64,000 nucleotides of DNA from Marsupella aquatica (Eukaryota; Plantae; Marchantiophyta). This document shows positions 25,756 through 50,314 of this stretch, one piece after another. Where the stretch lies: positions 28,034,210-28,098,209 of the forward strand of contig OZ316893.1 of the NCBI GenBank assembly GCA_973895155.1. The letters run 5' to 3'. A model generated the notes under the pieces. The model saw only the letters and a program-made list of their open reading frames with translations, was not told the DNA's origin and made no database searches. A program made the translations under genes and the position numbers. Numbering within the stretch: position 1 is the first letter of the stretch; the number at the start of each line of letters is the position of its first letter.

Positions 25756-26451
25756 AAACCCCAATTTAAGGAATACTGAAGTATTAGATTAATTCCAATT
25801 TTATCTAAATATTATTAGTTAATGAATGATCAACCTCTTTAACATTTGGTGGGATAGTCAAAAACTTCAAATGTTTTGTTGCAAGATCTTTATAACAATG
25901 CATCACTAAATGACATCAAGTACCTCTTGATCCATGCACAAATCCTTAATTAAACTATCATTCATTGTTTCAATTGTCTATTTAATTATTATAGGGTTGA
26001 ATACAAAAAATATTGACACGCACCAGGGTGCATGACCTACAATCATAGTAAGTACCACCCTTTAATTAATTAGTTTCTTTACAACAATTAATAGGATTGT
26101 TGTATATTACAATTATGTCTACTGGACATTCATTTGAATGTCAATAATATCATGCCTTAATATCACCAAACTAAGGGCCCACTAACTAATATTATATCTT
26201 AAATAAACTAACCAACTAACTAACTTGTCTATTTAATTACTATAGGGTTGAATACAAAAAAGATTGGCACGCACCAGGGTGCGTGACCTACAATTATAGT
26301 ATCACCCTTTAATTAGTTAGTTTCTATTGCTTTGACTCAATCAGGCATGGAACCATATAAAATCAGAAATCATTGAAAGTTGAGTTCACTTGAGGGTGTA
26401 ACTATAATTATTATTTATTAATAGGATTGTTGTATATTACAATGTCTCCTG

Positions 26452-29400
26452 TGTTGTAACTAATACTTGAGTTAAGTCTACCTTTGGGATAACTACCTAT
26501 GTAACTACCCTAACTACTTAGGCCGTAGCCACATGTACATATTCTACCAAGAGTAAAGATGGAACCAACTCTTTGTCTCATTTCTCCCACAACACGTTAT
26601 CAGCACGTAGCTATCCACGAGCAATTTTTTCTTTGAGAGAAAGGCCAGATTTTCATTGAGTGTTTATAGATTTGACATAACTGCCCCTCCCAAGAAGCTA
26701 TGGATGAGAACTTCTCGATCACATTTCTAATTTTAGGTTTAACAAGGACGTTTGTGATTCCTCCAAATGTCATTGCGGAAGCCATGGACTACCTATGCCG
26801 AACCATGACGGACCGATCTCATAAGGACATTGAAGATCACTTAAGGAGGCACGAGAGAGAGCGAGAGAAAATGATTAAGCAAGAATCGAGAAAGAGTCGG
26901 TGTGAGAGAAGCACTGGCAATGAACGTTGGTAAGGCGCTGACAAAGAGAATCGAAAGTATTAAGGATTGAGGCGAGAAACAATAAGGATTGAAGGTGAAG
27001 AAACCCCTCTGGAAACGACCTTTAAATCTGAGAAGAAACGAAACAAATTCTGATAAGGATAGCAGATAATGAAAATTACAGAGGAAGGGGGCATAAAACG
27101 ATCGAGAGAGGAGGAAAGGCACAAACAAAACAGAGGATCGAATGCAACCATTCAAAGACTGAGAGCGCATTCCATAAGGACAGCATTGGACAGAGACAAG
27201 AATTGAAAAGCAGTACCGCAGAACAGAATCCATAAGAAAAGACTGAACCTCACCCCACTGATCGAAGGCGAAAAAAAAAATTCAAGCAGCAAAAGCATCG
27301 GGAGGCACTGGCGAAGAAGCATAAGAGAAATGAATCGATCTAAAGCGAAGAAAATCAAAGCGCCAGCGCGAAACTGAAGGCAAACAGAAACCCATAAGGA
27401 CAATCGAATCAAGATTGGAAGATTGAAAACTCGGGAGAAATACAAGAGCAGAAAGAGAAAGGAAAAACAAATACTCAGGGGGAGTGGGCTATTCGCACAT
27501 CCCCTGGTCTACAACTTGAGACAACAAGAACTTGAATTGAGAGGGAAAATTCGATGAGGATGAAACAAGAATAGCATAAAGAAGCCACGCAACCGATGCA
27601 AGCGAGGGAGCGATAAGACACGTCACGGAAGGAGAAAAGAGGGAATTTCCGTGTTGCCAAAGTTGCGACTGCACCAAAGAGAATCAGAGGAAAAGCAACT
27701 AGGAAAGAAACTACCGAGCGATCGAGGGGCGCAAGAGCGCTAACAGCACAGATCAGCCCAAAGTAGAAGGAGTCTTTACCAAAAGGCGAACACAAGGATG
27801 AGGAAAGTAAGGAGGACAGCGATGACCAATGGAAGTCCCAAAGTTACGGCACCTATAGCACAGAAGGACACATAATGCCAGTTTCGGTAAATAGTTCTCG
27901 TGAGATTGGCAGTATGCATGGACGACATGGAACAATCCACGACCAGGGGTAGGGGCATTGGTGTTATGAACTTACGAGTTGACCATTGGGAGCCAGTGCC
28001 TGCAGGGTTCGCTTCCTGAGGATCACACAATGACTTCCCGGGATTCAAATTGGAGAGATGATCTACCATTAAGCTCTGAAAGCGAGAAAGGGCGAGAAAG
28101 GACCCCACAATACACCGAATAAATCACTGGAGATAGCGTAGGCAGGTCCAGCGAATTACCCTCAGTCGCCATTGCCCCTTCTGGAGAGCAACGATGGGTC
28201 TGTTCGAGAGCAACTAGTACCCTGGAGGAAGATGCTAAAGAAAAATGATCGGACCCAGATACGATTCGGCACACAATAATAAGGACAGGGGAACAAACAT
28301 CAAGGAGGCCCAAGTCATTCGAGTAAGATAGCGCACCCAAAATGATACAAGTGCCGTATCAATTTAGGCAAACAAGGATAACAAGGCACTGACGTCGATG
28401 GCATTCAACATGAAATATCGAGGAGGGCCTAGAGATAAGAACCCAAAATGTCGAAAGAAGACGGCACAATTCACGGAACATAAACAGACCACCACAGACC
28501 AAAATAGTGATGCAATGTGGAGGCGTCAAAATTTGGAAAGGAATGCAGCAGCAGAGGGACGGAATGAAGGAAGGAACCATGCCACAATAAGCGAGTGAAG
28601 CAAAAAAAAAAAGGGAGTACAACAAAAAGAAGCCATCAAACCAAAGGAAAGTCCTCCACCTTTTCTTCTAAGAAGACCATTTTACACTAAGGAATGGAGA
28701 ACTAAATAACAAAGAGACTTTCTCTTCAAAAGGCAAGAAAAACCAAACAACAAGGCATGAAGTAAGGACATAAAGAAAGAAACTAAATTACAGAACCTAC
28801 ATGGCGACAAATGATGATTACTTCCACCAATTAATTTCATAAATTCAGGGGGAGAATTGTTTTTCCCAACGTGCCTACTGCACTTAAAAGTTAAGCTCCG
28901 TGCCTACTACACATGGAAGCCAATGAGTGCCTACTGCACATGGAAGTAAATGACAAATTGAGGGGGAGACCTCAAGTAAGACTTGACATCAAGCAATGTA
29001 ACCCATGGGATGTGCCTATTGCACAAGTGCCTTTCGCACCAATGAATACCTAAAAATGGAACTCTATTCCATGCATATGGCAAATCATGAAATCTTACCA
29101 ATACTTGATGAGGTATACTGGATATTAAGGTACCATATGATAATATGAGGTACAGTACCAGGTCATAAGGTACCATAAGGTAAGACATGGCATGGTAAGG
29201 CACCATAAGAGATGGTGCGCCATACCCCAATATGATAACCCTATGTTGTGGATATGGTACGTGATGTGGTGCAAATAGGTTATGCCCACGTACACCAAAT
29301 CTAGGGTTGGACACCCAATCCAATTCCAAGGCCATGGATTACACCATATCATCTTCATTTTGTACTAATACTTTGCTTTGTCATGGCATGTAATCGGTGA

Positions 29401-29962
29401 CCATCAAGGAGTCTCCATTTCCCGATTGGAAGGAGACACGAGAAACAATCAACCAAGGAAGATCTTCAACAAGCCTATAGTGCTTATAAGCACCTTAAGA
29501 GACTTTGTAGAAATTACACATACACTATATGCTTAAACCCAAATATGTTTCACCCATGGGGATGGTAATACTCTTTCCTCCCACAAAGAAAGTAGGGGAG
29601 GTTTTAATGAGGTTACATCCCCCACTTACACTTGACCATGCAACATGAATTATAAGACATCTATTAGGAGAAGCTTGACATTCATTCATAGTAGACTTGA
29701 GATGGCTACACCATTTATAAAATAGGCTAGACATAAACAAAACCTATTGTATACCACTGAGTATACCCAAAGTAGACTCTTGATTGTAACATTTCAACCC
29801 CAATGTTACAAAGGGGGAGTGTTGTAACTAATACTTGAGTTAAGTCTACCTTTGGGATAACTACCTATGTAACTACCCTAACTACTTAGGCCGTAGCCAC
29901 ATGTACATATTCTACCAAGAGTAAAGATGGAACCAACTCTTTGTCTCATTTCTCCCACAACA
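26452..29962 (+). mobile_element. Non-autonomous LTR retroelement with Bianca-type PBS, very young
   Basis: 143-bp LTRs at 26452-26594 and 29820-29962 look identical, TG...CA. TSD TCCTG. PBS CGTTATCAGCACG, PPT AAAGGGGGAG. No recognisable gag/pol in the 3.2-kb interior. Confidence 0.92.
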
Positions 29963-30307: not shown

Positions 30308-33300
30308 TTACTTGTATATTGGAGATGGATCACGTTCCCATTTCTTATCCCAAGAATCTGCCCACCGCTCTCTTGGCTGCCAGTCTGATTGACCACGTTG
30401 CTTCTTTGCCATAAATGGTCTAAACCACTCAACGCCACATACATGAGTAAGAAGGTTTTGTTCATTCACTGGTCCTTCTACCACATCTGTAACAACTAAC
30501 CCCATATGGACGGGATAAACATCCAGGTCTGAGTCGTCCGGCCGTACCAACACATAACAGCCCTTCACAACATCAACCCTAGGGTTAAAACTCTCAGGAG
30601 GTTTATCTTTTGCTGGTCCCACATAATCCACTGTTGCCTCCAACTCACATGCCACATTTCGATATTCTGGTGGAACGTGCTCTCTCCATATTGATAAAGG
30701 CCAAAACCCATATTCCAAGTTGTGTGCACCTTCAGGTTCATATTGCACCTGCTCACCCTGTAGAGTATCTACAATGTCATTCCAATAATTGATGAGAGTT
30801 GTCCAACGTCGCTTTGGTTCTTCCTCTTTTGTTCGCTTTAGAATAAACTCAAAGAATGACACATGCTTCTTCAACCCTGTCAGCACTTCAGGAAGCATTT
30901 TCAACTCCATCATTGGTAGCCGTTTGGGCACCCCAATTGGGATGTGAGGACTTTTGTCATCTTTCCATGACCACATTTCAATACCTTCCTTGGGTAACCA
31001 TCCCTGATCAGTTGACTTCATTTTGTATTGGAAGCATGGCATACTATCATGACGAACATAGAACCTAAACAGCCTGGGTTTTAAATGCCCCACCAATGCC
31101 TCAGGGCCCTTCAACATGAATGGAGCTAAGTAGTTTTTGAAATCTGGGACCTCATGTAGAAAATGTGGGACTGCATTGGGTGTCCTTGCTCTCATGAACA
31201 AGGACATTAACTCAGGCAATGAGTATGTGGGGTTATGCATCATAGACTCTGAAAAATGCCCGAACATACCGTCAACGTCCTCATGAATATGCCCAACCAC
31301 CATAAAACCAAGATGAACCTCTTCAAACACCTCCCTTGCCGTCAACAATGACAAATAAGCCATCATATATCTGTTCTTGTTGTCTGAGGCACAATTCTCC
31401 AGTTGTAGCTTCAATACTCGTGGAAGGGGCCTGAACTTTGGTGCCTCAGGTGCTGCATCACAATGTAACAATCTCATAATGCTTTTAAATAAAACCCTAG
31501 TCAGACCCTAAACCCCAATTTAGGGTTTAGGGTTTAAACCCTATTAATGAAACCTTGGCTAGGAGGAGCAACAACTACACAAAGTAGAGTGTTAGTGTGT
31601 GTGAGCTTATATTATTCAATAATAATAAATTAAAGGATTGTGAGTAAAGTACCTAGGCTTGAGATGTAGGCAATGTCATCCTCAAATGCTCTAAGGACAC
31701 TTGCCTCCAAGATATCTGCTCTCCCAAAAAGGTCTTTAAAAAGACTTGCCGAGTCTGGCCCCTCCACAAGTGATTTGATCATTGGATTTGGGTTTTCCAA
31801 CATCCTTAGTATTGAATCAATTGACCCAATAGTGATGTTGACATCACCTGGCCACACTCCAACATGATATTGGGCTATGGCCTTGGGACCATGACCATGA
31901 GTATGGATACCAGTGACAGTAATTGGGAACTTTTGGGCACCATCCACATGCTTAGGATTGAAGGGCATTCTTGGGAGAGCTGTCTTTGAATGATCCATCT
32001 TATCATGAATAAGGCATAACACTTCCTTTGGACGATGGATGGACTCATATCTCCAGGTATGATAGCACATTCTTTGCTGTGTGTGGTCTTGGTGATGTTC
32101 CTCCTCGTCACGCCTTAGGCCCTCTAACTCTTCCTTAGCTCCTGTAAGGTTTGCTTTCCGTTGAAGCAACTCATTACAAGTTGTACACTTTGAAAAGTTG
32201 TTGCCCTTTTTGTGACGTGAGAACTCCCTGAAATACATCTGATGTAGATGACTCAAGGTGGGTTGGGAAATTGGAGGAAGACCAGCCTCCTGGTTGACAA
32301 CATTAACCCTGTTTCTAATATTCTCCCAAGTAAGATTTGTTGGCAATTCCCTCAAAACCATCATTGTATTATCTGCCATGGTTCTCAACTTGGCTGGATG
32401 ATGATCAGCTGCCTCCTCAATGCTCTCTTTCATTGACATGAACGCTTGAGATACTTTCTCGGACATACGCCTTTTTCCAGCATTACCATGGGTACCTATG
32501 TTCATTCTAGCCATCACAGTCTTCTTCAAGGCATAAAATTGAGTCTTTCCTCTTGAATGAATGATTCTCCATGCCTCCAAGCACAATACTTTGCCCTCCA
32601 CTGCTAGAATCCTTTCTCCAGTACCCAAGTGTATTGTATTTTTAATAGCCTTGATTTCCTCCTCCTTGCGCTCGGCAAAAGATTTTGACCACCACTTTTG
32701 CCTAATTGCCATAGCCAAGTTGCGGTCCAAATATTGGCAACAATGTTCACTACAACAGTCCTTAGTGTTTATCAACAACACATCTTGACGTGCCAAAGAT
32801 GTGTCTCTTCTAGATGTCTGGGAAGATGGACTCTTTCTTTTCCTACTTTTATGGACGTAGGACCGCTTGCCACTTGTTGGAGATGTGTTCCCTCCCACAG
32901 CTTGCCTGATGTTGTGGAAAGACAACAAGTTGCCATCCTTGGCAATGAGTTGGTCCATCGACCAAGCTTTTAAGCAATCTCTATGCTTTAGATGATCTAT
33001 GGTAGCTCCCTCGACAAAATCGTTGATCAGAATTCCCACATGTGTATTCCCAAGGGTGACATCCCCAAGCTTCACTATAGGATCTAGAACATGTATAGTT
33101 GCCACTGCAAAAATCAACTTGTTCTCATCCACCACCTTTACAAGCATGCCCATCCACAAGGCCTTTGGTAAAACTACTTCCACACCAGACCGACTCTCAT
33201 TATGGTTGTTCCCATCAAAATTTTGATTGACTGGATCTTGATCATCACCAACAGTGCCAAACACATCCTCCGATTCCATGGGAGCTCGAAAAAGCTGATT

Positions 33301-33558
33301 CCTTTCCCATACAAGGTAACCCCCAATCATGTCCTTCAAAAGTTCGCCATCTTCGCATAGAATGGTCTCGTCAAAAACTTCCTCCAATAGAAGAAGAACT
33401 CTGTCCGCCCCAAGGGGAACATTGTGACAAACCCTGGAAGGATCAAGACTTATCACGCGACCTTTTCCAACCTGTTTCTCACGTATGCCTATAATAACTT
33501 GTCCACCTTCCCTGATCCAGACTGTCGATGTCACCATAATAATTATGATCCTGCACAT
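30308..33558 (-). CDS. DDE-type transposase (DUF7869/Sola-like core) with two N-terminal Tnp1/En-Spm-like repeats; at least two exons
   Basis: FSKCTTC, LCLIHDKMDHSKT, LQLENCASDNKN and FMVVGHIHEDVDGMF motifs. Intron donor at ~31652. N-terminal VGKGRVISLDP...VPLG and VATIHVLDP...VTLG repeats. Ends of the gene model are uncertain. Confidence 0.75.
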
Positions 33559-33579
33559 CAGAGAATATCACTATAAGCG

Positions 33580-34400
33580 TATAGTCCTGTCACGTCCGTC
33601 AATTTCACTGCACTGTCCTGTCACATCGGTCAATAAGCAGAATGTAGTCAATGCACTGCGCTGCACGCGACTGGTCGCGTGACCCTAGAGGTACCACACA
33701 TACCGGCAATAGACTATGCATGGTCCATCAATCATGTCAAATGAATGAGAATGACCACAATCGATTATGATCAATCATTTCACATCCACTCAGAACAAAT
33801 GAGTGGACAGTCAGTAACTACTAAGGACAGTAGTGCTAATAAGCGCCAGTAAAACGTCCGTGAACTGCATTGTCCTGTCACAACCGTCAATAAGTAGGCA
33901 GAATGTAGTCAATGCACTGCCCTGCACGCGACTAGTCGCGTGACCTTAGTCAGAGGGTGTAGGGATAACAGGGTCTACGACGTAGAAGCTAGAAGGCTAG
34001 GCCCAAACTCTAGCTCGTACTTGGTACTTCATAAGTAAGATACGATTGCGCGTGAGACAGGAAGATACAATTATGGATCTAAAGGCATGTCGCGTGACCT
34101 TAGTCAGAGGGTACAGGGTCTACGACGTAGAATCTAGAAGGCTAGGCCCAAACTCTAGCTCGTAATTGGTACTTCATAAGTAAGATACGATTGCGCGCGA
34201 GACAGGAAGATACAATTACGGATCTAAAGGCATCACACATACCGGTAAAGATAATGCATGGTCCGTCAGTCATTTCAAGTGAATGAGAACGACTACAATC
34301 GATTACGAACAATCATTTCAACTCCACTCAAGAAAAATGAGTGGACAGTACCAGTTTACCAATGAGTGGACACCGGACAGTCAGTAACTACTGACCTTCA
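33580..34400. repeat. Locally duplicated segments upstream of the transposase, with palindromes
   Basis: Blocks repeat at ~33610/33870, ~33945/34095 and ~33700/34235. CACGCGACTGGTCGCGTG at 33664 and CACGCGACTAGTCGCGTG at 33925. Confidence 0.8.
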
Positions 34401-35252: not shown

Positions 35253-35454
35253 CTCGATCGAAGTCAACAATATTTTGAGTAGTCGAAGATTAGAACTACA
35301 GATTCAAGAGTAGTTCAAGTTAGAACTTGTTATAGATACTGGGTAGCTTAAATTCCTGGATAGTGCTAGTGGATATGGATTCCACATTCGAAGTCCTTCG
35401 GGATCGATGTAACCATTTTTGCAATCAAGGAAAAATCAAGATTCCTCTGACTGA

Positions 35455-36420
35455 CAATTCGCTAGGCTGTCGACTACAATAAACAATATCAAAAAGACCT
35501 GCGATAAATTGGTTCACGCGACTGTGCGCGTGATGAACTACATGTGTAACCAAAAACAGGTCATCCTACTAACAAGTTGAGATCAGGCAGATCTGAGAAA
35601 TAAAGGGCGATTACGTCTAAGAGTGCAAAGCTTTCGCTGACCTCTAAAACATTAACGCGACCGGGCGCGTGATGAAACGAAGACCTCGGTTTTAAAATAT
35701 ATTTCTGGCCAATTCGCTGGGCAGTCGACTACAATAAACAATATCAAGATAAATTGGTTCACGCGACTGTGCGCGTGATGAACTACATGTGTAACCCAAA
35801 AAACAGGTCATCCTACTAACAAGTTGAGATCAGAAAGATCTGAGAAATAAAGGGCGATTACGTCTAAGAGTGCAGAGCTTTCGCTGACCTCTAAAACATT
35901 AACGCGACCGGTCGTGTGAATCAGAACTCGGTTTCAAAATAGATTTCTGGCCAATTTGCTAGGCTGTCGACTACAATAAACAATATCAAAAGACACGAGA
36001 TAAATTGGTTCATGCGACTGTGCGCGTGACGAACTACATGTGTAACCAAAAAACAGGTCATCCTACTAACAAGTTGAGATCAAGAAGATCTGAGAAATAA
36101 AGGGCGATTACGTCTAAGAGTGCAGAGCTTTCGCTGACCTCTAAAACATTAACGTGACCGTGCGCGTGATGAAACAAAGACGTTGGTTTTAAAATAGATT
36201 GCTGGCCAATTTGCTAGGCTGTCGACTACAATAAACAATATCAAAAGACACAAGATAAATTGGTTCACGCGACTGTGCGCGTGACGAACTACATGTGTAA
36301 CCAAAAAATCAGGTCATCCTACTAACAAGTTGAGATCAGTCTGATGTGAAAAATGGACCTCGATTACGTTTCGTTTTCCTAGGCCGTCGACTACAATAAA
36401 CAATAGCAAAACGTACGGAC
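35455..36420. repeat. Tandem array of ~250-bp units (about 4), each with two palindromic motifs
   Basis: GTCGACTACAATAAACAATA recurs at ~35469, 35724, 35966, 36221 and 36386. Confidence 0.9.
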
Positions 36421-39009: not shown

Positions 39010-39945
39010 GCTGTTGACGCGACCAGTCGCGTGAAAATACTGTGAGGTTCCTTTTAGGACCAGTTGACGCGACCAGTCGCGTGTGAGAAGAAAACTGGAT
39101 AGATTTACTGAGCGCGTACCATATCCAAATCTCCACAAGGAAGGTTCAGTGGATATAGTTGTTTAGGTTCAGTTGACGCGATCAGTCGCGTCAGGTAGCT
39201 CTCTCATTGACTGGTTCTGTTAGAGGAGGTAAGGTTCCTTTTAGGACGAGTTGACGCGACCAGTCGCGTGTGAGAAGGAAACAAGATAGATTTACTGAGC
39301 GCGTACCATATCCAAATCTCCATAAGGAAGGTTCAGTGGATATAGTTCTTTAGGTTCAGTTGACGCGACCAGTTGTGTCTGAGGTAGCTCTCTCATTGAC
39401 TGGTTCTGTTAGAGGAGATAAGGTTCCTTTTAGGACGAGTTGACGCGACCAGTCGCATGTGAGAAGGAAACTGGATAGATTTACTGAGCGCGTACCATAT
39501 CCTAATCTCCACAAGGAAGGTTCAATGGATATAGTTGTTTAGGTTCAGTTGACGTGACCGGTCACGTCTGAGGTAGCTCTCTCATTGACTGGTTCTGTTA
39601 GAGGAGGTAAGGTTCCTTTTAGGACCAGTTGACGTGACTAGTCGCGTCTGACGTAGATCTCTCATTGACTGGTTCTGTTAGAGGAGGTAAGGTTCCTTTT
39701 AGGACCAGTTGACGCGACCAGTCGCGTGTGAGAAGGAAACTGGATAGATTTACTGAGCGCGTACCATATCCAAATCTCCACAGAAGGTTCAGTGGATATA
39801 GTTGTTTAGGTTCAGTTGACGCGACCAGTCGCGTCTGAGGTTGCTCTCTCATTGACTGGTTCTGTTAGAGGACAAAGACATTTATGATCAGTCTCTCAAA
39901 GAATTGTTTATGCATTCTGATTTGTAGACGCGACCAGTCGCGTGA
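39010..39945. repeat. Tandem array of ~190-bp units built around GACGCGACCAGTCGCGT
   Basis: GGTTCCTTTTAGGAC...GATAGATTTACTGAGCGCGTACCATATCC repeats four times plus partial units; 11 motif copies counted by eye. Confidence 0.9.
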
Positions 39946-39983
39946 AAATAATCTCTGGGATATATCATTTTGCTGAAAAGAGT

Positions 39984-40536
39984 CATGGGCGAACCTGGTC
40001 TGGAGAGCTTCAGATATCTATGCCCAATATTTGACGTTTTGGACAGAAGCCAAGATGGTCTACTTGCGGGATATTCTATATTTGTTGAAACACTACTACC
40101 TGGACTTCCAGATTTCATTGTCACGGAATTGATATGGCCTCGGATCCAGGAGACTTTTAATTCCTCGGCTAATGCAGGAAATTTCTCAATAAAGGAATTG
40201 GATGAGTTTGTAGGACTATCTTCGGTGTGTCGCAGATGGCGCCACCTTGTTGGGAATACCTATCATCTGGGTGTAATCAAGTTGAGTTTATTAGATTTGG
40301 CTTTCCCAGGAAATCCTACTAAACCAGTCGGAAATGAGTCTCTCTCATCGACAGTTCAAAGTTTCTTCCAGAAATACTCAAGAATTAAATTCATGGGGTC
40401 AATGTCCAGAGATCTTAGGGAACTCTTCACGAAGACTTACGATGCTCTTCACCCTCTTGAAAAATGGAAATTTACAGTCAGATGCCACGAAGTTGGATAC
40501 CTTGAGGGTGACATCTACGCTTTTAAGGAATTCTAG
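39984..40536 (+). CDS. F-box-like cargo protein 1
   Basis: LLPGLPDFIVTELIWPRI...LSSVCRRWRHLV. Confidence 0.65.
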
Positions 40537-40601
40537 TTAACTTACGTGACCAAGTGCGTCGTATGTCTTCTAACAATGTTTTGTGATATGATAAAAGCAG
40601 G

Positions 40602-41108
40602 ATGAGCCAACTTTTGAATGAGGCTCGAGATTTCCTTTCATCTCATGAAAAGAAACAGAAAACAATATGGGATACGCTGGATGAAACCTCCTCTAGTCTC
40701 ATTGGAGGAATACCAGATGTTTTGGTCATTTCAAACATTTGGCCAATACTCTACGAACACTTTATTTCAATTGAAAGATTGTGTGGATATCGACACCTTG
40801 ATAACGATTTGGTTATCGATAGGGTCCGAGACCTTATTCGGCTTGGAGCTTGTAGCAAGAAGTGGAACTTTTTAGTTACAAATACAAGGTTATGGGCTAT
40901 CCTCAAACAAGCAAACCGGATTGTCGATGTCGCAAATGATGCTCTTTACGACATACCCGAAACTGACGAGTTGGAGTTTGACTCAGTCTGTCGAGTTATT
41001 CAACAGGATATTTCTATGCTTCCAGAAATATCTGTTCTTGGGACTACTACTTCTGACGAAATCGCATTGTTTACAAACAAATATAACAATTTAGATGAGG
41101 AAGAATGA
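40602..41108 (+). CDS. F-box-like cargo protein 2
   Basis: LIGGIPDVLVISNIWPIL...LGACSKKWNFLV; paralogous to its neighbours. Confidence 0.6.
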   Translation: MSQLLNEARDFLSSHEKKQKTIWDTLDETSSSLIGGIPDVLVISNIWPILYEHFISIERLCGYRHLDNDLVIDRVRDLIRLGACSKKWNFLVTNTRLWAILKQANRIVDVANDALYDIPETDELEFDSVCRVIQQDISMLPEISVLGTTTSDEIALFTNKYNNLDEEE

Positions 41109-41202
41109 GATGTCCTAATCGAAAGGTTTGGTAGATTTTCTCAAAATCTCGGTGGTCCCAGTTCTTAATGGATAGGTTCTTGTTCTTAATCTTTTCCATA
41201 TT

Positions 41203-41697
41203 ATGCTGCAGTCCTTTGACATGAATCGAAAATCTCATCGTCAAATGATGATGGAGCGCATTGCACGTGCAAAGGTTATGAACCGAAACATGATATGGAG
41301 TCAAGCTGAAGACCTGATACCCGGTCTTCCGGACGATATTGTCGAGAAATATATTTGGCCATTAGTCAAAGAGTTTTTCCACTGTCTTGGGAATTTGTTG
41401 GATACTACGATTAAAAATCGGGTCATGGACTTGATCGCCATTTGAACAGTCAGTAAGAAGTGGTGCCACATAGTTACTTATAGTAGTACTTGGGCGACGG
41501 TCACCTTGGTAGCTTACGACTTCACTGATAGACCAGGATATGAATCGCTTCGAAGGCATTTGACTTCACGGAGTGTAGCATTAAGATTTACAGAATCCAT
41601 CAGAACTCTCCCGCCGCTGGACATTCTGGGTGGATTTGAAGGATCTGAACTTGACACGTTTAGGAACCTTTGGTTTTGGTTAGATGAAGATGAGTGA
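41203..41697 (+). pseudogene. F-box-like cargo protein 3, in-frame TGA at 41443
   Basis: LIPGLPDDIVEKYIWPLV...I*TVSKKWCHIV. ORFs 41203 and 41506 share a frame. Confidence 0.6.
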
Positions 41698-41808
41698 GAA
41701 GATTGGGTCAGGATAAATGTTCATAAAATGTAATTCGGCACGACGCGACCATGCACGTGTTAGTATTTTATAATAAACGTTTAACTTTCAATATTTGTCT
41801 GTTTCAGA

Positions 41809-43047
41809 ATGGATCCTACCGGAACCTCAAAGCGGAAAAGAGACTCGTCTAAAGCTGCTTCTCGAAAGAAAACCAAGACAAAAATGACTCCCACGGAGAC
41901 ATCCATACTTGCATATCGAGGAAAGTCAATCAGAGAGAGAACAACGGAGACAAAGAGTATCCATCTCTTTGAATCGACTGAGATATCCGATTTTGGAATA
42001 GTCGTTCGCAATGGGGCTGTCCATCTTGTGGTGGCAAGAAATGATAAAGCAACAGTTTTGGAGAGATCAAAAATTCTCGGGTGTTTCTTTGAGAAGAACA
42101 TGAAAGTTAAAGAGTGTACAGAGGGATTGGTTCTGCTAGTCAGCGACGACCAGCAGGAAGACAAAATAAGCATTTGTTTGGATCAAACGCAATATGTAAC
42201 CTTCAATCAACCCATAATCGATGATCTTCTAGGTGCAAGGCACGCCTTGGAAAAGGTTACTAGTGTGGGATATCCTTCCGATCCAGAGGCATCAATGGGA
42301 GATTTGATTTGTCAATACATTATTGGCATACTTGAGTTCCAGAGAGTTCCTTTCAACCAGGGATTTCACTTGGGAAAGGCCCCGCCAGTGAGCAAGGTTG
42401 AAGTATACTCGGCGGAGAATCTTCCGAAAGTAATTACCTCAGCGAATGTCGGGGCTCTGTTTGATTCTTTCCTCAAAGAATATAGTGCTGTGAATATATT
42501 TAACAGCAAGTCATTTTTTGTTGAGACATCACGTTGTCATCTTGCACCAAACCACATCAAGTGCCGAGAGTGGAATCAGGATTACACATATAGGCTAAAG
42601 AATTCACTCCTCTCTAATTCGGCTATAAAGTTTGAGAAGCGATGTTGCTTTTTAGTCCCTGTGAAGTGGGTTCAGTCGGAGGCCGACAGAGATCCCGACT
42701 ACAATGGGACGCCCTACGATTCATCGCCAAAGGAGGAGGACATTATGACCAGTCATTTCTGGATACTCGGAGGCCAGCACACAATAATGGCGTACAAATT
42801 GCTGAGAGAGGACGACAAAGTCAGCCAAGTTGTACGAGACGCTTGCGGTACTGTAGAAGTTGTAATGTTTTGGGCAACGCTCAACAACGACAATAATGTT
42901 CATTTGATGGGATTATCGAAAGCTTTGAACCACTGTCATCAAACATCAATGGAAGAAGGACAGTTTCTCACCATTGTACGACAGTGTCGTAATATCTGGA
43001 ACTCATTTGGGCGGCCTGGATCACATTATCGTCATCCAAATTGGAAG
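41809..43047 (+). CDS. Exon 1 of the large cargo gene: ParB/Srx-like domain
   Basis: CREWNQDYTYRLKNSL...HFWILGGQHTIMAY...VEVVMF...LSKALN fits the ParB-like pattern. Phase-0 GT-AG intron at 43048-43146. Confidence 0.6.
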
Positions 43048-43146
43048 GTATATAAATAACCCTCTTCGATCATATTATCGTATAAACTTTTGTCACGCGA
43101 ACGGTCGCATCAAGCTTAGAATTGTCATGTTTCCATTGTTTTTCAG

Positions 43147-44872
43147 GTATTTATGAGAGCTACAAGTTTTGTTTGCCCATGGGCTCAAATGGGGAAGAAC
43201 AAAATGATGAAATTTGGAGAATTGGCTCCGTTTCTCTTTACAATGGAGGACGAAACATTCAAGAAGTGGATGGAGGTCTACGAACTATCAAGGACAGGAG
43301 AGCTTGTAATTTACAACAGAATTTTACAGAGGGACGCCGTCAAAATTGTGGATAATTCGTGTGCTTATCATCTTCTGAAGAAGACGTTCCGTTCTTGTCA
43401 AGGGTGCTCAGACTCGGTTCTTTGAAAGGCAGCGGAATATATGTTGAGCGGAAGATTGTCTATACTCAAAAACCGAAGCATCAAAGTGAAATCTGGGAAG
43501 GCGAGGAAGTCCTCTGAGGCTCCAGTGTTGTCAACGACCAGCATGAGTTTGGAGCAATTCTGTATAAAGAAGACGACGAAAGTTGAGTTTGAGATTTTAT
43601 TATTGAGTAAACTCAACGGGGAAACATCCACCCGGACGGAGCTGAAAAGTCTGACAGATTCAGCGCGGAAATTGCAGGTCAAAGGAATGATTGATCGCTT
43701 TAAGCTCGACAAGATGGTGCTGAAGCAGTTGAGAGATGCGTTGAGTGGTTATCTGAAGAAGTGCTTAAATGTAAATATTAGTAATGATAATTTGTTGAAG
43801 GAGATCGACCCTATATTCTACAGGTTGGTCGAAGGAATACAAAAATCAATTGATAGTCAAGGAAACCAACTAGTGCGGCCGGTCGATGAGAGGCTGAAAT
43901 TGCGATCCCTGCAGGATATACAAAATGTTGGGTTTGCAGACTGTATCATACGTGAAGACAAGAACCTTGCGAGCTTGATTTATTTTGATCCCTCATCAAA
44001 GGGAGATTTGCGTCCGCCAAATTGCTCATTCTATGAGGGGTTATTTCGTGCTACTAGCGAGATAGGGGCAAAACCACACCATGTGGTTATTATTGTAGCC
44101 TCTCCCGTTGAGTCTTACTTAATCAAATGGGAATTAGGGAAGTACACACACTACGTTGCTGTTGATAGCCATTATATTCAGAAGCGGCCGAAGGAGAAGA
44201 AGCTTATTGTAACCTACGCTTTTCACAGCTTGGCCTTCAGCACAATGAGTGATCCACAAGCCCTCGAGTTCCAATTGGTCTCCAAATATCAGATTGAGAA
44301 GATAGCCAATTTTGAAGAGAGCGGCGAGTTCACGACACCTTCCCCAGAAAAGATACTTCCATTCTTTGAAAGTATTGTTAGTCAATTCGTCCAATGTGGG
44401 GAATGGGCTATATGCTTCGGTGAGGGAACGAACTTGATCCAGTGCTTAATGGTAAGTTTTGAGATTTATATTTTGGGGTTTCGATTTTAAGATTATTTAC
44501 ATTATTATATTCTCAATTAATATTGTGAACTAATTTTGGCTTTTTTATAGGATGCTGGATCCAATGTAAAATATTACTGCCCTGTGGCAACGCATAGGGA
44601 GTTGTCTTGTTTCTTGCAACACACCACGGCGACAATTGATACAACGCTGTCATTGATTGACCCAGTACGGGCTAGTATAGAAAAATGTATAGATAAATTA
44701 ATGAAGTACCGTCCATCCGTAACTGCTCTCAGGGCTGATGTTTTGGATGTTCTCCACGAACAACATATCCCTGATAATCTTTGTAATCAATTATTGCAAG
44801 AGTATGCACTCTCTGAAGATTCCGATCAATTGTACATTCGACCAACGGAGTACCCTAGTGGGCCAATCCAAG
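43147..44872 (+). pseudogene. Exons 2-3: helical region and degenerate beta-class DNA MTase-like domain (in-frame TGA at 43423)
   Basis: ASLIYFDPSS (cf. DLI.TDPPY), GAKPHHVVII (cf. LKPGG) and EKILPFFESIVSQFVQCGEWAICFGEGT (cf. KP..L...I......GD.VLD.F.GSGT) appear in beta order. Frame-preserving introns at 44452-44550 and 44873-45000. Confidence 0.45.
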
Positions 44873-45000
44873 GTAAGTTACTTTTGAAACCTCTTACTTT
44901 TTATTGCGTCACGCGAACATGTGCGTGGACATTCATAACATTTCTTTTCACGCGAATATGCGCGTGAGTCATTCTTATCAAATGATTTGATTTTATTCAG

Positions 45001-46241
45001 ATCAAGTCGACTGTGGCTTCAATGTTGAGGATGCAGGGAGCAATGGTGATGCGGATGGTGAGGGGGAAGGTGATGCGGAAGGTGACGCGGATGGGGATGT
45101 CAATGACCAAGATCCAGAGTGGATGACCGATACGTAGAACGACGTCGGAGATTTCGACAATAGAGGAGATGAAGAGAGTGACGGAGAGGAGATGAAGGAC
45201 GTTGAGAACGCTGATGAAGAGGATGAGGAGATGGAGGGTTCCAAGGACGCTGAGGACTCTGATGAAGAGGCCACACAGGAGCCTTGACATGAGGTGGACT
45301 GAGAGGAGGCGGCCCGGCAGGAGGAGGCCCGGCAGGAGGCGGCCCGGCAAGAGGAGCTTCAAAAGAAGGAGGTTAAGAAGAAAAAGGCAGCAGCTAGAAA
45401 AGCAACTACCGCGAAGAAGAAGGAGAAAGCCCAGGCGGAGAAAGCCCAGGCGGAGAAAGCGGATGCCGAGAAAGCCCAGGCTGAGAAAGCCCAGGCAAAG
45501 AAAGCGGAGGCTGAGAAAGCGGAGGCTGAGAAAGCGGAGGCTGAGAAAGCCCAGGCCGAGAAAGCCCAGGCGGAGAAAGCCCAGGCGGAGAAAGCGGAGG
45601 CCGAGAACGCGGACGCTGCGAGAGTCCTTTTAGTGACAGAGGAAAATAGGGCCAAGGCGGAGAGTGTGGCGGCTAAGAGGCTGCTGGCCGAGAGGATGGC
45701 GGACGAGACCGCAAGACCGGAGAGGGTGGAGGCGGAGAAGTTGGAGGCGGAAAAGGTCAATTCCGCAAGACTGGAGAGAGAAGAAGCCGCAAGACTGGAG
45801 GCAGCGAGGAAGGAGGCCGAGAGGGCCAAGGATCTTTCGCTTATTCCTGAGGCACAACGTCTACCAAAAATAAGGCTGAATTTGAAGAAGCCGTCTTCAC
45901 CCTCAGTTGTAGTTAAGAAGAAAATATTAGACTATTTTCTTCGCCCGGAGTTTGAATTTAGCGATCCACCCTTAAGTACGGTCTCGTTGGATGATTGGAA
46001 TAAATATTCACCAGAGCAGCTCCGAGTCCAGGCAGTCCTTGCTTTGCAATATTGGAAGGGTCTTTTGATTACCGAGGAGAAGACTGCCACTGCATCCAGA
46101 ATGGAGACAATCATCAATAATGTGCGCTTTTCTGAGAATCGAGTGCAAGACCTGGGAACATTTTTGGCACCAGACTCGGCTCAAGTCGTTAAGAGACTAA
46201 CAGCTGACTTGACGCGACCGGGTTCGTGGTCTCGACCCTGA
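45001..46241 (+). pseudogene. Acidic D/E tract and (AEKAQ/AEKAE)n coiled-coil exon
   Basis: The frame set by the phase-1 intron reads DQVDCGFNVEDAGSNGDADGE..., with a 15-bp tandem repeat at ~45425-45610. In-frame TAGs at 45135 and 45630. Confidence 0.65.
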
Positions 46242-46744
46242 TATATTGCAGAGGTGACTCGCGTAGAAATTGTGGCACCTGATATTTTGGAATCGGATTC
46301 CCAGATTATGGAATATTTGAATCAAATGCCACAACCATTTGAAGGTCTTCCCACCTCATCGCTCCAACCTTCGCAAACTGGTCCGGTGGAGCGATCACTG
46401 CGGTCTTGAGGAGGGCTGAAGGATGTTGTTGCGATTGAGGCACCCAAGAGATCAGCTGCGAAAAGGCCGGATCCACCCAATCCAAAGGTCATTCGCAAGC
46501 TATAAGCTTAAAGTTTCTATTATAGATGTCATTATTTTATTATTGATCTGTTATTGTTTTTGTTTTCTGAGGCTACAACCCTTAGGCTACAACCTCAGTA
46601 CGTTATTTGAAGGCGTACTGAAATCTCTGTTTTTTGCAGTTTTTTGAAAATTTGGCTAGTCGAATAGATCAATGCCTTGATCCTTCTAAGGATATGGAAG
46701 AGCTATTGACCAAGTTCTTATAACACTCGATCAAGAGGAAACAT

Positions 46745-47428
46745 ATGATGTGTTTGAGACCGCGCGAGTTGCTCACCGATGATATAATTAATGCTTATTT
46801 GAGTTTTCTCGAACTGATTCTTGATAGAGTTGGAAAGTCAGACCTTGTCAAATTCTTCCAAACACACCATTTTGAGCTTCTCTCCATGGATCCTACCATT
46901 TTCGACGAGGAGAGGGCAGCTTGGACAAAGGAGTTTCCGCTAAAAATCAGTGAATACGACAAACTGGTCTTTCCAGTACACAATGCTGTGAAAGAACATT
47001 GGTCATTGGTAGTCTTGTATCCGAAGGAGAAACGGCTGGAGTACCTAGATTCTCTAGTTCATAATCGACAGAATCCTGGGGTGCTAGATATTGTTGGGAA
47101 GTACTACGCCGACGAAATTGGCTGGAGAACTGGTTTCAACTTGGATCTCTTAGGTTGGGAACGGATATATCGGAATGATATTCCTCACCAGAGTGACGGC
47201 CACAGTTGTGGTGTGTTTATCTTGAGATACGCCAAGTGCTTGTGTCAAGGAAACGGAATTAATTTTGCCGCGGATCAAATTGAGAAATTCCGTAGGGAGA
47301 TAGTCTTATCGTTATTTGACATGGACTTCCGCAAGCCGACGTCCGCAAGTAACCTAGTTACCGGGATCCGTGCTACTATGATTGACATTTTCGGCGGAAT
47401 TCCAGCACTGAACGACCGTCTTGTACAG
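46745..47428 (+). CDS. Ulp1/SENP-family (C48) SUMO protease domain
   Basis: LTDDIINAYL, FPVH...EHWSLVV, YLDSL, PHQSDGHSCGVF: His-Asp-Cys triad and oxyanion Gln all present. Confidence 0.9.
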
Positions 47429-47503
47429 GTAATACACTTCATTTCAGTGTCTCTCTTTGTAGTCACGCGACCGTTCGCGTTATAAACTTATTTTCATTTC
47501 TTA

Positions 47504-48412
47504 ATGTTTTACAGAAGCCTATCCCGAAACCCCCTGATCGAGTATCGAAGGCACCAGTCCGGTGATCATCCGGAGGCGGGAAACAAACAGACCGTTCTAG
47601 TACGTTCTCCAAACCCTGCGGCACAAAAATCACAGGTACAGATGGCGCCTAATCCATCGGCAAAGAAGTCACCGGTTCAGAAGAGACTTGTAATTTTCGA
47701 TCTGAATCGGGTACTTATCTGGTCAGAGAAGATCAGCCCTGGGATGCCCATTCGGTCAAGGGGTGTGAGACAGATGCACAAGGTTATCTATCCAAGGCCT
47801 GATTTAATGGAATTTCTTGAGAAGGTGGCAGATCTATACGACATTGCAATCTGGTCGTGCATGTTCAAACGGAATATTCTATCTTGTGTAAGGCTGATAC
47901 TTCGACCCAAAGTTTTGAAACGTATTAAATTTATATGGGGACAAGAATCAACTCGACTTATTGGGAAGAATAATAATGACATCCCTTTATTTGTCAAATG
48001 TCTCTCGGATATTGCCGCAGATATTAAAGATTACAACATCGAGAATGTCATTCTTATCGATGACGCTGCATATAAGATGAGCCTTAATGACTTCTATTCA
48101 TCGCTGTATCCCGATGCATATTCTGGGCTCGATGATGACCTATTTTTTAGAAAGAAACTATATCCATATCTATGCAACATGTCAATTGACAAGTTGACAT
48201 TCCGCGAGCTCCTTAGTGGATATGGGATTCCAACGTTCTCTCAAGAAAATCTTGAGAAAGATTATATTGATAAGACGAATCTTTGGAGGAGAAACGTGAT
48301 CATTCGTAATCAGGGGAATAAAGACCATTTAGAAAAGTTTGACAAATTTATGAAATACTTATCTACCGAAAAAGACCGTGCTATAGAAGCCCGGGATAAG
48401 TCCAATAAGTAA
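47504..48412 (+). CDS. FCP1/NIF-like HAD phosphatase domain 1
   Basis: KRLVIFDLNRVL, RPDLMEFL...YDIAIWS, FVKCL, NVILIDDAAYK. Confidence 0.8.
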   Translation: MFYRSLSRNPLIEYRRHQSGDHPEAGNKQTVLVRSPNPAAQKSQVQMAPNPSAKKSPVQKRLVIFDLNRVLIWSEKISPGMPIRSRGVRQMHKVIYPRPDLMEFLEKVADLYDIAIWSCMFKRNILSCVRLILRPKVLKRIKFIWGQESTRLIGKNNNDIPLFVKCLSDIAADIKDYNIENVILIDDAAYKMSLNDFYSSLYPDAYSGLDDDLFFRKKLYPYLCNMSIDKLTFRELLSGYGIPTFSQENLEKDYIDKTNLWRRNVIIRNQGNKDHLEKFDKFMKYLSTEKDRAIEARDKSNK

Positions 48413-48537
48413 ACGTTTATTATTTATTATCAATTATTATTTATAAATTGATTGAAATTGAACTTTTGGGAGTGACGCGCCCGGTCGCGTGGTTGTTTGC
48501 AATTGCATAATATGAGAATCGAATTGTTCATTTATAG

Positions 48538-50046
48538 GTGTCTAAGTGGAGCAGGTCGCATCAACTTCTAGTTTTAGGACTGGAAAACTTCCTGTGCTCT
48601 GTTTCAAAATATACTCCTTAGCTCAAGTTGACACCCGGAATTCGTATCGGATCTCTATGTGTCGTTTCGAGGCTGCATCTTCATGATCTTATAAAATTCT
48701 GTTATGATCATTTTGATGTGATGGTCTGGTCTATTCTTGACGATAAACTGGTTTATCAGATACTTTCAGAAGTGTTGTCGAGCACCGACCTGTCGCAGCT
48801 GATATATGTGTTCACACGGGATCATTGCTGGAATCTTGGTTATGTGAAGAAAAATTATAAGACTATTGTCTTCAAATCTATCGAGAGACTACGTGATATG
48901 TTTCAAGATTATCGACCAGAGAATATAATCCAGATTGATGCCTGTCCTTCCCATACATGCCAGACAGCTGTATGCGGATTATTGTTCGCTAAGTCGTTTC
49001 AAGGATTGTTGGATGATGTCTTTTTGAGGGATGACCTCATTCCATATTTACAAAAGCTATCAAATTCAGGGCTTGTCTTGCGTTCGCTAACAAGTTCGAT
49101 TATCCCATCTGGTCGATTAGAAATCTACATCGAGATTGGGATCTGAACGAGGATATATGGGAGCATCTGTACGTGCAGAGACATGCGGATCAAGTTCTTA
49201 TCAAGCACTTCAACAGACATCACTTATCAATGGCCAGAGTGTAGAGGATGTTTTCTCTGTAATATGTGACGCGACCATTCGCATGACTACATCCATACGG
49301 GCTCATGCATCTTCTTGTGTTTCTCTACAGGAGATTCATTGCAGCAGAGAAAATGGGCTCATAGTTTTAGACGTGGAGCATCTACTCTGTTACACTGCAC
49401 CGCATTCCCGACTGATGGCGGTCTCAACTGGAATTCGGATTGGGAATATATACATTTTTCCAAGGCCTCATCTTCACAAATTCTTGAGATTCTATTTTGA
49501 GAATTTCGATGTAGGGATCTGGTCCTCTCTTGGGAAGAACCTTTTAGATCAGATTTTAGCATCTATTTTTACTGCGATGGAAATGGCCTCATTTATCAGT
49601 CTCATTGTTATTTATGCGATGGGGTGACATCAAATAAGCGGATATTTTTGAAGTGTTTTGAGAAGGTTGGAATTTATACAAAGGCGTATCTGCAGCAAAA
49701 TATAATGCTTATCGAATTCGATGCATTTCATGCTTGTTTAGATCCTGTTGTTGGATCATTATTTCCGCCCAAATATTTTGGGTCGGTCGACGACAGTTTC
49801 CTAATTAACTTGCTGATTCTGTATCTTAGCAAGCTAGCAAACTCTTGTGAGCCGCTTGTCATTGCCAATGGAAGAGATTATCCAGATTGGTCAGTTAAAT
49901 CTATTTTTAGAGATTGTGATTATAATCATGCTCTATGGGAAAACCCTATGATTCAAAGGCATGGAGATAGATATCTAGTAGAGCAATTTAATAGACGCCC
50001 AATTTTGGACGCTTCCAAAATAATAGTCGGCATGAGATCAGATTAA
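48538..50046 (+). pseudogene. FCP1/NIF-like domains 2 and 3, diverged and frameshifted
   Basis: RLHLHDLIKFCYDHFDVMVWS...NIIQIDACP and IVLDVEHLL...RPHLHKFLRFYFENFDVGIWSS...NIMLIEFDA. Confidence 0.7.
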
Positions 50047-50314
50047 TTTGTATGTCGTTCTAGAAACTATTTGTAAACTCCTTATATACTGGTTATCATA
50101 TATAAAGGATCTCAAAGATTTATTTCTCTATTATTATTATTCGCGTGAGCATGTCTCTTGGTCCCGTCAAGTTGGATTGGTTAAAATGTGACGTTGCAGT
50201 CATTTTCAGGGTTTCACGCGCAGCCACGCGTCATGTCGCCCCCTTTTTATTAAAATAATAATATTTAGTGATTTTCGGAATTTCCAAAGTTCGGTTTTCC
50301 TTAAATTGGGGTTT

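What the first reader, a model, noticed from the sequence alone, without database searches (positions are those of the whole stretch)
26268..50232. About 30 copies of a CG-rich palindrome (ACGCG-N6-CGCGT) in the element's non-coding DNA: parS-like or VANC-like sites
Seen by eye at 33664, 33925, ~7 copies in 35515-36283, 11 in 39016-39944, between cargo genes (40544, 41742), in predicted introns (43094, 44910, 44949, 46211, 47464, 48474, 49268) and near the ends (variant CACGCACCAGGGTGCGTG at 26268; 50215). Arms are conserved while the spacer varies. I did not notice it in clear coding exons or outside the element. Established: ParB dimers load on ~16-bp palindromic parS sites and spread, and VANC binds short motifs enriched in VANDAL introns and tandem repeats. 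Inference: these are cis targets of an element-encoded dimeric protein. Retention of CGCG amid many C-to-T changes suggests protection from 5mC or selection.
Basis: partly seen in the sequence, partly recalled or inferred. Interest (0 to 1): 0.9.

Follow-up and report, generated by a model that had tools for sequence, protein, structure and literature searches.

The report
Plant transposon with ParB-like binding sites
A 21-kb jumping gene, likely from a liverwort- or moss-like plant, carries about 30 copies of one short palindrome, nearly all in spacers and predicted introns, and a gene predicted to fold like the bacterial DNA clamp ParB; distant relatives carry different palindromes in the same intron, so the element likely recognises its own DNA with its own protein.

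Summary
There are 17 exact and 30 accepted copies of ACGCG-N6-CGCGT (11 exact after collapsing tandem arrays), none outside the element, and shuffles give none. The site is really a ~20-bp palindrome, T[CG]ACGCGAC-NN-GTCGCGT[GC]A. It lies in a multi-copy, Sola-1-like DNA transposon (25757-50313; AACCC/GGGTT ends, 4-bp target duplication, DUF7869 transposase). On the opposite strand is a spliced gene whose first exon is predicted to fold as PH-like plus ParB. Two of three distant relatives carry their own, different repeated palindromes in the same intron, which suggests protein and site co-evolve. The ParB arginine patch is altered, and the methyltransferase-like part is unconfirmed. The motif-bearing arm keeps more CpG than the transposase gene, but no more than a nearby Gypsy at third codon positions. 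The design is in print, untested, for algae (Ectocarpus Sola1-1, Bostrychia PAG3), and this scan noted it before in animal, fungal and protist DNA. New here: a likely land-plant case, a defined site and lineage-specific site turnover. Binding is untested.

The parts
25757..50313 (.). Sola-1-like DNA transposon, 24,557 bp (about 21.0 kb without the nested LTR element), inserted in the 3' region of a Gypsy-type repeat
   Evidence: Termini AACCC...GGGTT; contigs of other copies leave the window at 25754-25757 with unlike flanks in 3 of 4 runs shown; empty-site homologue at about 10770-10800
25753..25756 (+). Target duplication CAGA (right copy TAGA at 50314-50317, one C>T); a 2-bp AG reading with ends one base further out gives the same empty site
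25757..25820 (+). Left terminal inverted repeat, about 64 bp, 78% identical to 50253-50313
26018..26284 (.). Two variant sites ACGCA-CCAGGG-TGCRT (26018, 26269) in a subterminal duplication
26452..29962 (.). Nested LTR element with identical ~143-bp LTRs and a 5-bp duplication TCCTG; holds no site
30308..33537 (-). Two-exon DDE/DDD transposase gene; DUF7869 in exon 2; strongly CpG-depleted; holds no site
   Evidence: Pfam PF25273 E 6.8e-34; CpG o/e 0.32
33665..33941 (.). Two exact sites (33665, 33926) upstream of the transposase start, in a local duplication
35455..36339 (.). Tandem array 1, 255 bp x3.5, two sites per unit, 7 sites (35516-36267)
39017..39943 (.). Tandem array 2 region (189-bp and 80-bp units), 11 sites, just upstream of the cargo genes
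39952..41697 (+). Three F-box-like open frames (third broken by a stop); site 40544 in the first spacer, site 41743 just after the third
   Evidence: weak Pfam F-box hits below cut-off
41809..43047 (+). Exon 1 of the accessory gene: PH-like domain (about residues 36-188) and ParB/Srx-fold domain (about residues 231-380) with motif GGQHT
   Evidence: AF2 mean pLDDT 83.5; Foldseek top hits ParB/Noc/PadC/Srx, best E 8.3e-3; VIA Z 7.6 PadC, 7.5 KorB
43048..43146 (+). Intron 1 (GT-AG, 99 nt) with site 43095; relatives' first-exon frames end at the same place, and L001 and L002 carry different palindromes in this intron
43147..44451 (+). Exon 2: helical region conserved in relatives, in-frame stop at 43423, then a region with beta-class methyltransferase-like words (YFDPSS at 43981, ICFGEGT at 44410), not confirmed
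44873..45000 (+). Intron 3 with two sites (44911, 44950)
45001..46493 (+). Acidic and coiled-coil repeat region with stops and a frame break; site 46212 (2 mismatches), possibly in a short intron
46724..47429 (+). Ulp1-type protease exon; the following intron (about 47430-47514) holds site 47465
   Evidence: Pfam PF02902 E 7.1e-18
47515..50046 (+). Three NIF/CTD-phosphatase-like domains; site 48475 in a non-coding gap; site 49269 in a probable 72-nt intron (49259-49330)
   Evidence: Pfam PF03031
50216..50231 (.). Last exact site, 22 bp inside the right terminal repeat
50253..50313 (-). Right terminal inverted repeat

Best explanation
The ~20-bp palindrome is likely the recognition site of the element's own predicted ParB-fold accessory protein, which would bind it as a dimer and mark the transposon as 'self'. 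Shown: the sites are confined to the non-transposase arm of a Sola-1-like element, mostly in spacers, predicted introns and tandem arrays; they have one spacing; and they sit in and around a gene whose first exon is predicted to fold as PH-like plus ParB. Two distant relatives have different repeated palindromes in the same intron. Inferred: the protein binds the site as a dimer, and new sites spread by tandem duplication and change together with the protein, as VANC and its motifs do. The likely job (about 0.4 on its own) is local anti-silencing of the accessory genes and of the divergent promoter region shared with the transposase. It would work through occupancy and the attached domains (a degenerate methyltransferase-like part, an acidic region and possibly Ulp1), not through CTP-driven partition. 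This copy is dead (in-frame stop, frame breaks, nested LTR element) and its sites now decay like other CpGs.
For: Site statistics. In the cargo block, 8 of 10 sites fall in the 1,244 non-coding bp out of 10,326 (binomial P 1.6e-6, exon model drawn by eye), and one of the other two is in a probable intron. ParB fold. In relatives, L002 intron 1 has 3 near-perfect 18-bp palindromes of the type ATGGGGCGATCGCCCCAT (shuffle mean 0.054; 0 of 2000 reach 3). L001 has 2 of the type TCATCG-N10-CGATGA (mean 0.019; 0 of 2000 reach 2). Neither motif occurs in the window, nor the window's motif in L001-L003 at <=2 mismatches. The transposase has a separate candidate site: a copy of the terminal repeat lies in its own intron at 31511. 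CpG retention differs within the element: C at third codon positions before G is 97/294 in cargo exons and 17/133 in the transposase (Fisher P 6e-6), with no difference before non-G. Published precedent: a ParB plus methyltransferase gene opposite the transposase in the 21.5-kb Sola1-1_Ec32 (PMC12477816), and inverted-repeat arrays beside the ParB-like PAG3 (10.1101/2025.02.11.637652).
Against: No binding data. The structural match is moderate: Foldseek best E 8.3e-3, none at E<=1e-3; VIA Z 7.6 is within the range the tool calls common. No Pfam, PHROGs, NCBIfam or PADLOC ParB hit was found. No DNA-binding helix-turn-helix was shown, because exon 2 folded badly without an alignment (pLDDT 32.6). 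The arginine patch reads GQHT. The methyltransferase-like part scored below shuffles. Motif CpGs decay like neighbours. The Gypsy element in the window keeps C3-before-G equally well (69/212 = 0.33), so cargo CpG retention is not unique to the motif-bearing arm. L001 and L002 are 1.4-kb contigs, so no transposase link is shown there; the third locus, L003, is degraded and has no palindrome. No genome was held, so genome-wide specificity is untested.
Confidence: 0.6

Rival explanations
1. The ParB-fold protein binds the sites but works in transposition, not chromatin: it would coat or loop the 21-kb element and help the transposase pair the distant ends or tether the excised element.
For: ParB/KorB/Noc are the top structural matches. 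Sites or variants lie near both ends (26018, 26269, 50216). The element is very long for a cut-and-paste transposon.
Against: Sites are absent from about 7 kb on the transposase side and cluster around cargo genes and the divergent promoter region. The CTP patch is altered. This rival shares the binder with the best explanation and differs only in the job; its odds overlap with it.
Confidence: 0.2
2. The sites are bound by the transposase (TnpA-style subterminal or autoregulatory sites).
For: There is an exact site 22 bp inside the right terminal repeat and two upstream of the transposase start. The transposase has cysteine-rich N-terminal stretches. The relatives' different palindromes could equally track a diverged transposase.
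Against: Most independent sites are deep inside the element, in introns of another gene. The terminal repeat has an unrelated sequence, which recurs in the transposase intron.
Confidence: 0.15
3. The sites recruit a host transcription factor that reads CGCG boxes (CAMTA- or E2F-like; consensus recalled) to drive or license expression.
For: Each arm holds a CGCG core, and the arrays sit upstream of genes.
Against: Only one spacing is found among the eight tested. The relatives carry palindromes of unrelated sequence in the same intron, which a conserved host factor would not explain. Lone half-sites are few (8 in the whole window).
Confidence: 0.12
4. The palindromes act as RNA hairpins or are neutral debris spread by tandem duplication.
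For: 18 of 30 sites lie in or beside two tandem arrays. C>T changes, tolerated as G-U pairs on the + strand, outnumber G>A 11 to 5.
Against: 11 exact sites remain after collapsing arrays, in unrelated flanks. No compensatory change is seen in the arms. There is no Rfam match. Sites occur in spacers as well as introns.
Confidence: 0.08

Closest known systems
Sola1-1_Ec32 of Ectocarpus (PMC12477816; passages and supplement rows read)
   Same: About 21 kb; AACC termini (AACCG-CGGTT there, AACCC-GGGTT here); 4-bp duplication ending in A; ParB-like accessory gene on the strand opposite to the transposase; proposed there to bind and modify its own element.
   Different: There the methyltransferase domain is recognisable; here it is unconfirmed and its catalytic word would be DPSS. 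Here there is an N-terminal PH-like domain plus Ulp1, NIF and F-box-like cargo, and a likely land-plant host. The word 'palindrom' does not occur in that paper's main text; its FASTA supplements could not be read.
PAG3 of red-algal Plavaka/EnSpm elements (10.1101/2025.02.11.637652; passages read; supplements closed)
   Same: ParB-like accessory protein with tandem arrays of inverted repeats beside its gene; same hypothesis of self-binding.
   Different: Different transposase superfamily, and a 2OG-oxygenase partner domain. The passages describe arrays adjacent to the gene, not single sites spread through introns and spacers.
VANDAL/VANC anti-silencing system of Arabidopsis (PMC5735166; passages read)
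   Same: Short family-specific motifs in non-coding regions, introns and tandem repeats; motifs differ between families. VANDALs also carry Ulp1 genes (recalled).
   Different: VANC motifs are 8-9-nt non-palindromes arrayed in one orientation, on Mutator elements, and are bound by an unrelated protein. Binding and demethylation are shown there and not here.
Bacterial ParB/parS, Noc/NBS, KorB/operator (structures 7bm8, 7ol9, 8qa8; biology recalled)
   Same: ParB N-terminal fold; many copies of one 16-20-bp palindrome in cis.
   Different: The arginine patch is replaced by GQHT; no helix-turn-helix was shown; no ParA ATPase was found among the frames scanned; the context is a eukaryotic, intron-bearing transposon.

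Membership tests
Sola (Sola-1) DNA transposon | 4-bp target duplication | tested here: met
   CAGA/TAGA, one mismatch; other copies' contigs end at 25756-25757. A 2-bp reading is not fully excluded. Feature from PMC10741241.
Sola (Sola-1) DNA transposon | Terminal inverted repeats, AACC-type ends as in Sola1-1_Ec32 | tested here: met
   About 64-bp repeat, 78% identical; AACCC...GGGTT against AACCG-CGGTT.
Sola (Sola-1) DNA transposon | Transposase that groups with Sola1 references | tested here: inconclusive
   DUF7869 hit, E 6.8e-34. No Sola reference sequence was available, no held paper names DUF7869, and Bao 2009 is not held.
Sola (Sola-1) DNA transposon | Dispersed copies with different flanks | tested here: met
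   Loose ends with low agreement at the left end; all 30 bins of 33000-51000 covered in 4 of 4 runs.
Algal ParB-methyltransferase accessory class | ParB-like domain on the strand opposite to the transposase | tested here: met
   transposase on -, accessory gene on +.
Algal ParB-methyltransferase accessory class | N4C/N6A methyltransferase domain | tested here: inconclusive
   No HMM hit. Own profile of 41 phage methyltransferases gave -2.1 bits. hhalign places the motif-I stretch correctly but scores 15.5 against up to 19.6 for 60 shuffles. The fold failed.
ParB/parS | ParB N-terminal fold | tested here: met
   Top 7 VIA rows (Z 5.8-7.6, 84-104 residues aligned) and top 14 Foldseek rows are all ParB/Srx-fold proteins; scores are moderate.
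ParB/parS | CTP-binding GxxR arginine patch (recalled) | tested here: not met
   Reads GGQHT at residues 321-325; T nearly invariant among 14 aligned sequences. Mapping is by eye.
ParB/parS | Helix-turn-helix DNA-binding domain after the ParB domain | tested here: inconclusive
   Helices follow, but exon 2 modelled at pLDDT 32.6.
ParB/parS | Repeated ~16-bp palindromic cis sites | tested here: met
ParB/parS | ParA ATPase partner | tested here: not met
   No ATPase family among the element's frames scanned in Pfam; frames under about 100 aa mostly not scanned.
ParB/parS | Specific binding and spreading from the site | not testable with these tools
   Needs EMSA, ChIP or DAP-seq.
VANDAL/VANC | Mutator transposase and VANC (DUF1985) protein | tested here: not met
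   Neither family was hit among the frames scanned.
VANDAL/VANC | Family-specific motif in non-coding DNA, introns and tandem repeats | tested here: met
   feature
VANDAL/VANC | Protein-induced loss of methylation at the element | not testable with these tools
   Indirect signs are mixed.

The most novel reading that the evidence does not exclude
Land-plant Sola transposons use a domesticated bacterial ParB-type protein and a lineage-specific palindrome, planted in their own introns and spacers, as a private self-recognition code that loads an anti-silencing or DNA-marking activity on the element. This would be a second, independently invented VANC-like system, with protein and site co-evolving across lineages.
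Probability: 0.35. Interest if true: 0.85.

Novelty: new variant of a known kind. Interest (0 to 1): 0.62.

Why it matters
One of the papers read calls VANDAL the only transposon known to bind and modify its own sequence, and two recent algal papers only propose the same for ParB-like accessory genes. This element gives a sharp, testable pair in a likely land plant: a 20-bp site and a candidate reader. It also gives two relatives with different sites for swap experiments. If the pairing holds, a bacterial segregation fold has been reused for transposon self-recognition across eukaryotes, and each family would supply an orthogonal protein-site pair.

Tried and rejected
No host genome is held, so there was no genome-wide motif count. 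No RNA holder was listed; this says nothing on expression. Homology searches for exon 2 and for long full-length relatives (weak by the tool's own note) found nothing. No relative of the ParB exon was found in annotated phages, viral contigs or prokaryotic genomes (one exact peptide pattern only), and a profile search of PDB sequences was blank. The 18-nt motif scan of viral contigs gave 11 stretches with one exact match each, taken as chance. The ESM Atlas gave no usable hit for two exon-2 queries and was not obtained for the ParB domain. The single-sequence fold of exon 2 failed. The methyltransferase profile tests were not significant. There was no Rfam match. P0015 (3247 aa) was set aside as a spurious hit with bacterial surface-protein domains. 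Rejected: a 'free' spacer, motif-level protection from CpG decay in this copy, and CACTA or Mutator identity (termini and duplication length; the CACTA transposase at 62773 belongs to a neighbouring element). Literature: 9 searches found no description of a ParB-bearing transposon or of this palindrome in land plants. Repbase reports, Bao 2009, Iyer 2011 and most subscription journals are not held, so this is weak.


Full report
OBSERVATION. The motif is real. ACGCG-N6-CGCGT occurs exactly 17 times, all between 33665 and 50216, and not once with spacers of 3-5 or 7-10. In 33601-50316 there are 17, 26 and 32 sites at 0, up to 1 and up to 2 arm mismatches. Sixty dinucleotide shuffles give means of 0, 0.12 and 1.87, and the 39,434 bp outside the element give 0, 0 and 2. 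I dropped two of the 32 (37835, 50226) as chance or overlap. Eighteen of the 30 lie in or beside two tandem arrays. With the arrays collapsed to one unit, 11 exact and 15 near-exact sites remain, and this is still the most frequent of all spaced 5-mer palindromes (11; best outside the element 5). The spacer is partly fixed, and the site is better written T[CG]ACGCGAC-NN-GTCGCGT[GC]A.

THE ELEMENT. A 64-bp imperfect inverted repeat (78%) bounds the region. Contigs from public runs leave the window at 25754-25757 with unlike flanks. A homologous empty site in the neighbouring Gypsy repeat fits an insertion at 25757-50313 with a CAGA/TAGA duplication; a 2-bp reading gives the same empty site and is not fully excluded. 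The family is multi-copy: thousands of contigs lie on it in three runs, most at 90% or more, and 209 in a fourth. A 3.5-kb LTR element is nested at 26452-29962, leaving about 21.0 kb. The transposase (minus strand, 33537-30308) hits DUF7869. The plus strand carries three F-box-like frames, a long spliced gene, a Ulp1 protease exon and three NIF-phosphatase-like domains. Ends, duplication length, size and layout match Sola1-1_Ec32 of Ectocarpus: AACCG-CGGTT termini, 4-bp duplication biased to end in A, 21,549 bp (supplement row), with a ParB-like plus methyltransferase gene opposite the transposase (passage). The host is not given. GT-AG introns, plant-type telomere words in the transposase intron, CG and CHG decay and a relative annotated in the liverwort Calypogeia fissa (1 of 10 clusters looked up) suggest a bryophyte-like plant. 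This is inference.

THE CANDIDATE READER. Exon 1 (41809-43047) has 29 hits among 1.84 billion representatives, one of which I set aside as spurious. Folded on a 27-sequence alignment it gives mean pLDDT 83.5. The top 14 Foldseek rows are all ParB, Noc, PadC or sulfiredoxin (best E 8.3e-3, none at 1e-3). The independent aligner ranks PadC (Z 7.6, 99 aligned, rmsd 3.0) and KorB (Z 7.5, 94, 2.7) first, and matches residues 36-188 to PH domains at Z 4-5. The scores are moderate but the two methods agree. The conserved word is GGQHT where ParB has its GxxR patch (recalled), so CTP clamp behaviour is doubtful. Exon 2 begins with a helical region conserved in relatives and has an in-frame stop at 43423. 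It then has two words in the order of a beta-class amino-methyltransferase (YFDPSS, ICFGEGT). Tests did not confirm the domain: no HMM hit, -2.1 bits against a profile of 41 phage enzymes, and an hhalign match at the expected stretch that scores 15.5, below the best of 60 shuffles (19.6). The single-sequence fold failed.

WHERE THE SITES SIT. None lies in the transposase gene, its intron or the nested LTR element. In the 10,326-bp cargo block, 8 of 10 sites fall in the 1,244 non-coding bases (P 1.6e-6; exon model drawn by eye). Of the other two, 49269 lies in a probable 72-nt intron and 46212 is unresolved. Introns 2 and 4 of my model have no site.

RELATIVES. One metagenome scan gave 3 loci from 7 pattern matches, at 28-32% identity to the ParB domain. 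L001 and L002 keep the intron right after the ParB exon. L002 has three near-perfect copies of an 18-bp palindrome in it (type ATGGGGCGATCGCCCCAT), and L001 has two of type TCATCG-N10-CGATGA. None of 2000 shuffles of either intron reaches the observed count, and neither motif is in the window. L003 is degraded and has none. So the habit of repeating a palindrome in this intron is kept while its sequence changes. This is the strongest evidence for an element-encoded reader over a host factor. It does not by itself tell the ParB protein from the transposase, and the two contigs are too short to show a transposase. A copy of the terminal repeat in the transposase's own intron (31511) suggests that the transposase reads a different word.

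METHYLATION. Sixteen of 17 arm mismatches are CpG transitions, and in the arrays motif CpGs decayed in 8 of 61 cells against 5 of 41 elsewhere. Among the 26 transitions that I took from the 40 best-supported difference rows (965 rows not shown), 21 have C or G in the reads: 11 in CG, 6 in CHG and 4 in CHH context. This copy was therefore likely methylated after insertion. At arm scale there is a contrast: CpG o/e is 0.84 with motifs masked, against 0.32 in the transposase, and third-position C before G is 97/294 against 17/133 (P 6e-6). But the Gypsy genes in the window give 69/212, as high as the cargo, so this is compatible with long-term protection and does not show it.

MECHANISM. Most likely (0.6) the ParB-fold accessory protein binds the palindrome as a dimer. 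Sites multiply by tandem duplication and turn over with the protein, as shown for VANC motifs (PMC5735166, passages). The likeliest job is local anti-silencing (about 0.4 on its own); help in pairing the ends of a very long element is the next. Transposase binding (0.15), a host CGCG factor (0.12) and hairpin or neutral explanations (0.08) are less likely. Shown: sites, their placement, element anatomy and the relatives' palindromes. Predicted: the fold and the splice model. Inferred: binding, dimer and function.

WHAT IS KNOWN. The idea is in print for brown algae and red algae, where inverted-repeat arrays lie beside the ParB-like PAG3; the passages read report no test. I reached both papers through earlier notes of this scan (the Ectocarpus paper had also been listed), which record similar designs in animal, fungal and protist windows; these are unchecked AI notes. 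A note on a plant repeat with a ParB-methyltransferase relic and palindromes also exists. Nine literature searches gave no land-plant case. Papers seen as passages: PMC12477816 (plus supplement rows; its FASTA files unreadable), 10.1101/2025.02.11.637652 (supplements closed), PMC5735166, PMC10741241, PMC4738411, PMC5751038, 10.1101/2021.02.12.428880. PMC7466625 had no match for Sola. Bao 2009 and Iyer 2011 were not seen. The unread supplements may already show such sites in the algal elements.

VERDICT. A real, non-random feature of a dead copy of a Sola-1-like element. It works like a VANC-type self-recognition system built on a ParB fold, but it is a member of neither VANDAL/VANC nor ParABS. 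New variant of a recently described, untested kind; interest 0.62.

Noticed in passing
window 31492-31545: The transposase intron holds a near-copy of the element's terminal repeat (AACCCCAATTTAGGG at 31511) among plant telomere-type words, a possible autoregulatory transposase site; the terminal repeat itself resembles a telomere-type word.
   Followed up: partly
window 26452-29962: Nested LTR element with identical ~143-bp LTRs and a TCCTG duplication, but no recognisable gag or pol in Pfam: a young non-autonomous element. Whether other copies share it was not settled.
   Followed up: partly
window 1-25755 and 50314-54300: Several copies of a Gypsy-type repeat with gag-pol at 4409-10575 and a ~4-kb repeated segment that holds coiled-coil open frames (copies at about 1-4340, 10800-13600, 21600-25500 inverted, 50320-54290); very high depth in public runs.
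   Followed up: no
window 58600-64000: Start of a CACTA-type element (Transposase_21 at 62773) preceded by PHD-finger (58634-59308) and BRCT (60509-61456) frames: chromatin-reader cargo on a second DNA transposon; strongly CpG-depleted.
   Followed up: no
window 47515-50046: Three tandem NIF/CTD-phosphatase-like domains behind a Ulp1 protease on a transposon; with the F-box-like triplet, a possible toolkit acting on RNA polymerase II, SUMO and ubiquitin.
   Followed up: partly
window 34704-35252: 182-aa open frame between the transposase promoter region and array 1, with a CxxC...C..H stretch and no Pfam family at cut-off.
   Followed up: partly
P0025, P0030: Two relatives run from the ParB exon into exon 2 without the intron, so they may come from spliced transcripts or intron-less copies; P0025 reads through the place of this copy's stop.
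   Followed up: partly
L001:1238-1312, L002:362-548: Both relatives' palindromes are centred on GATC, unlike the window's site.
   Followed up: partly
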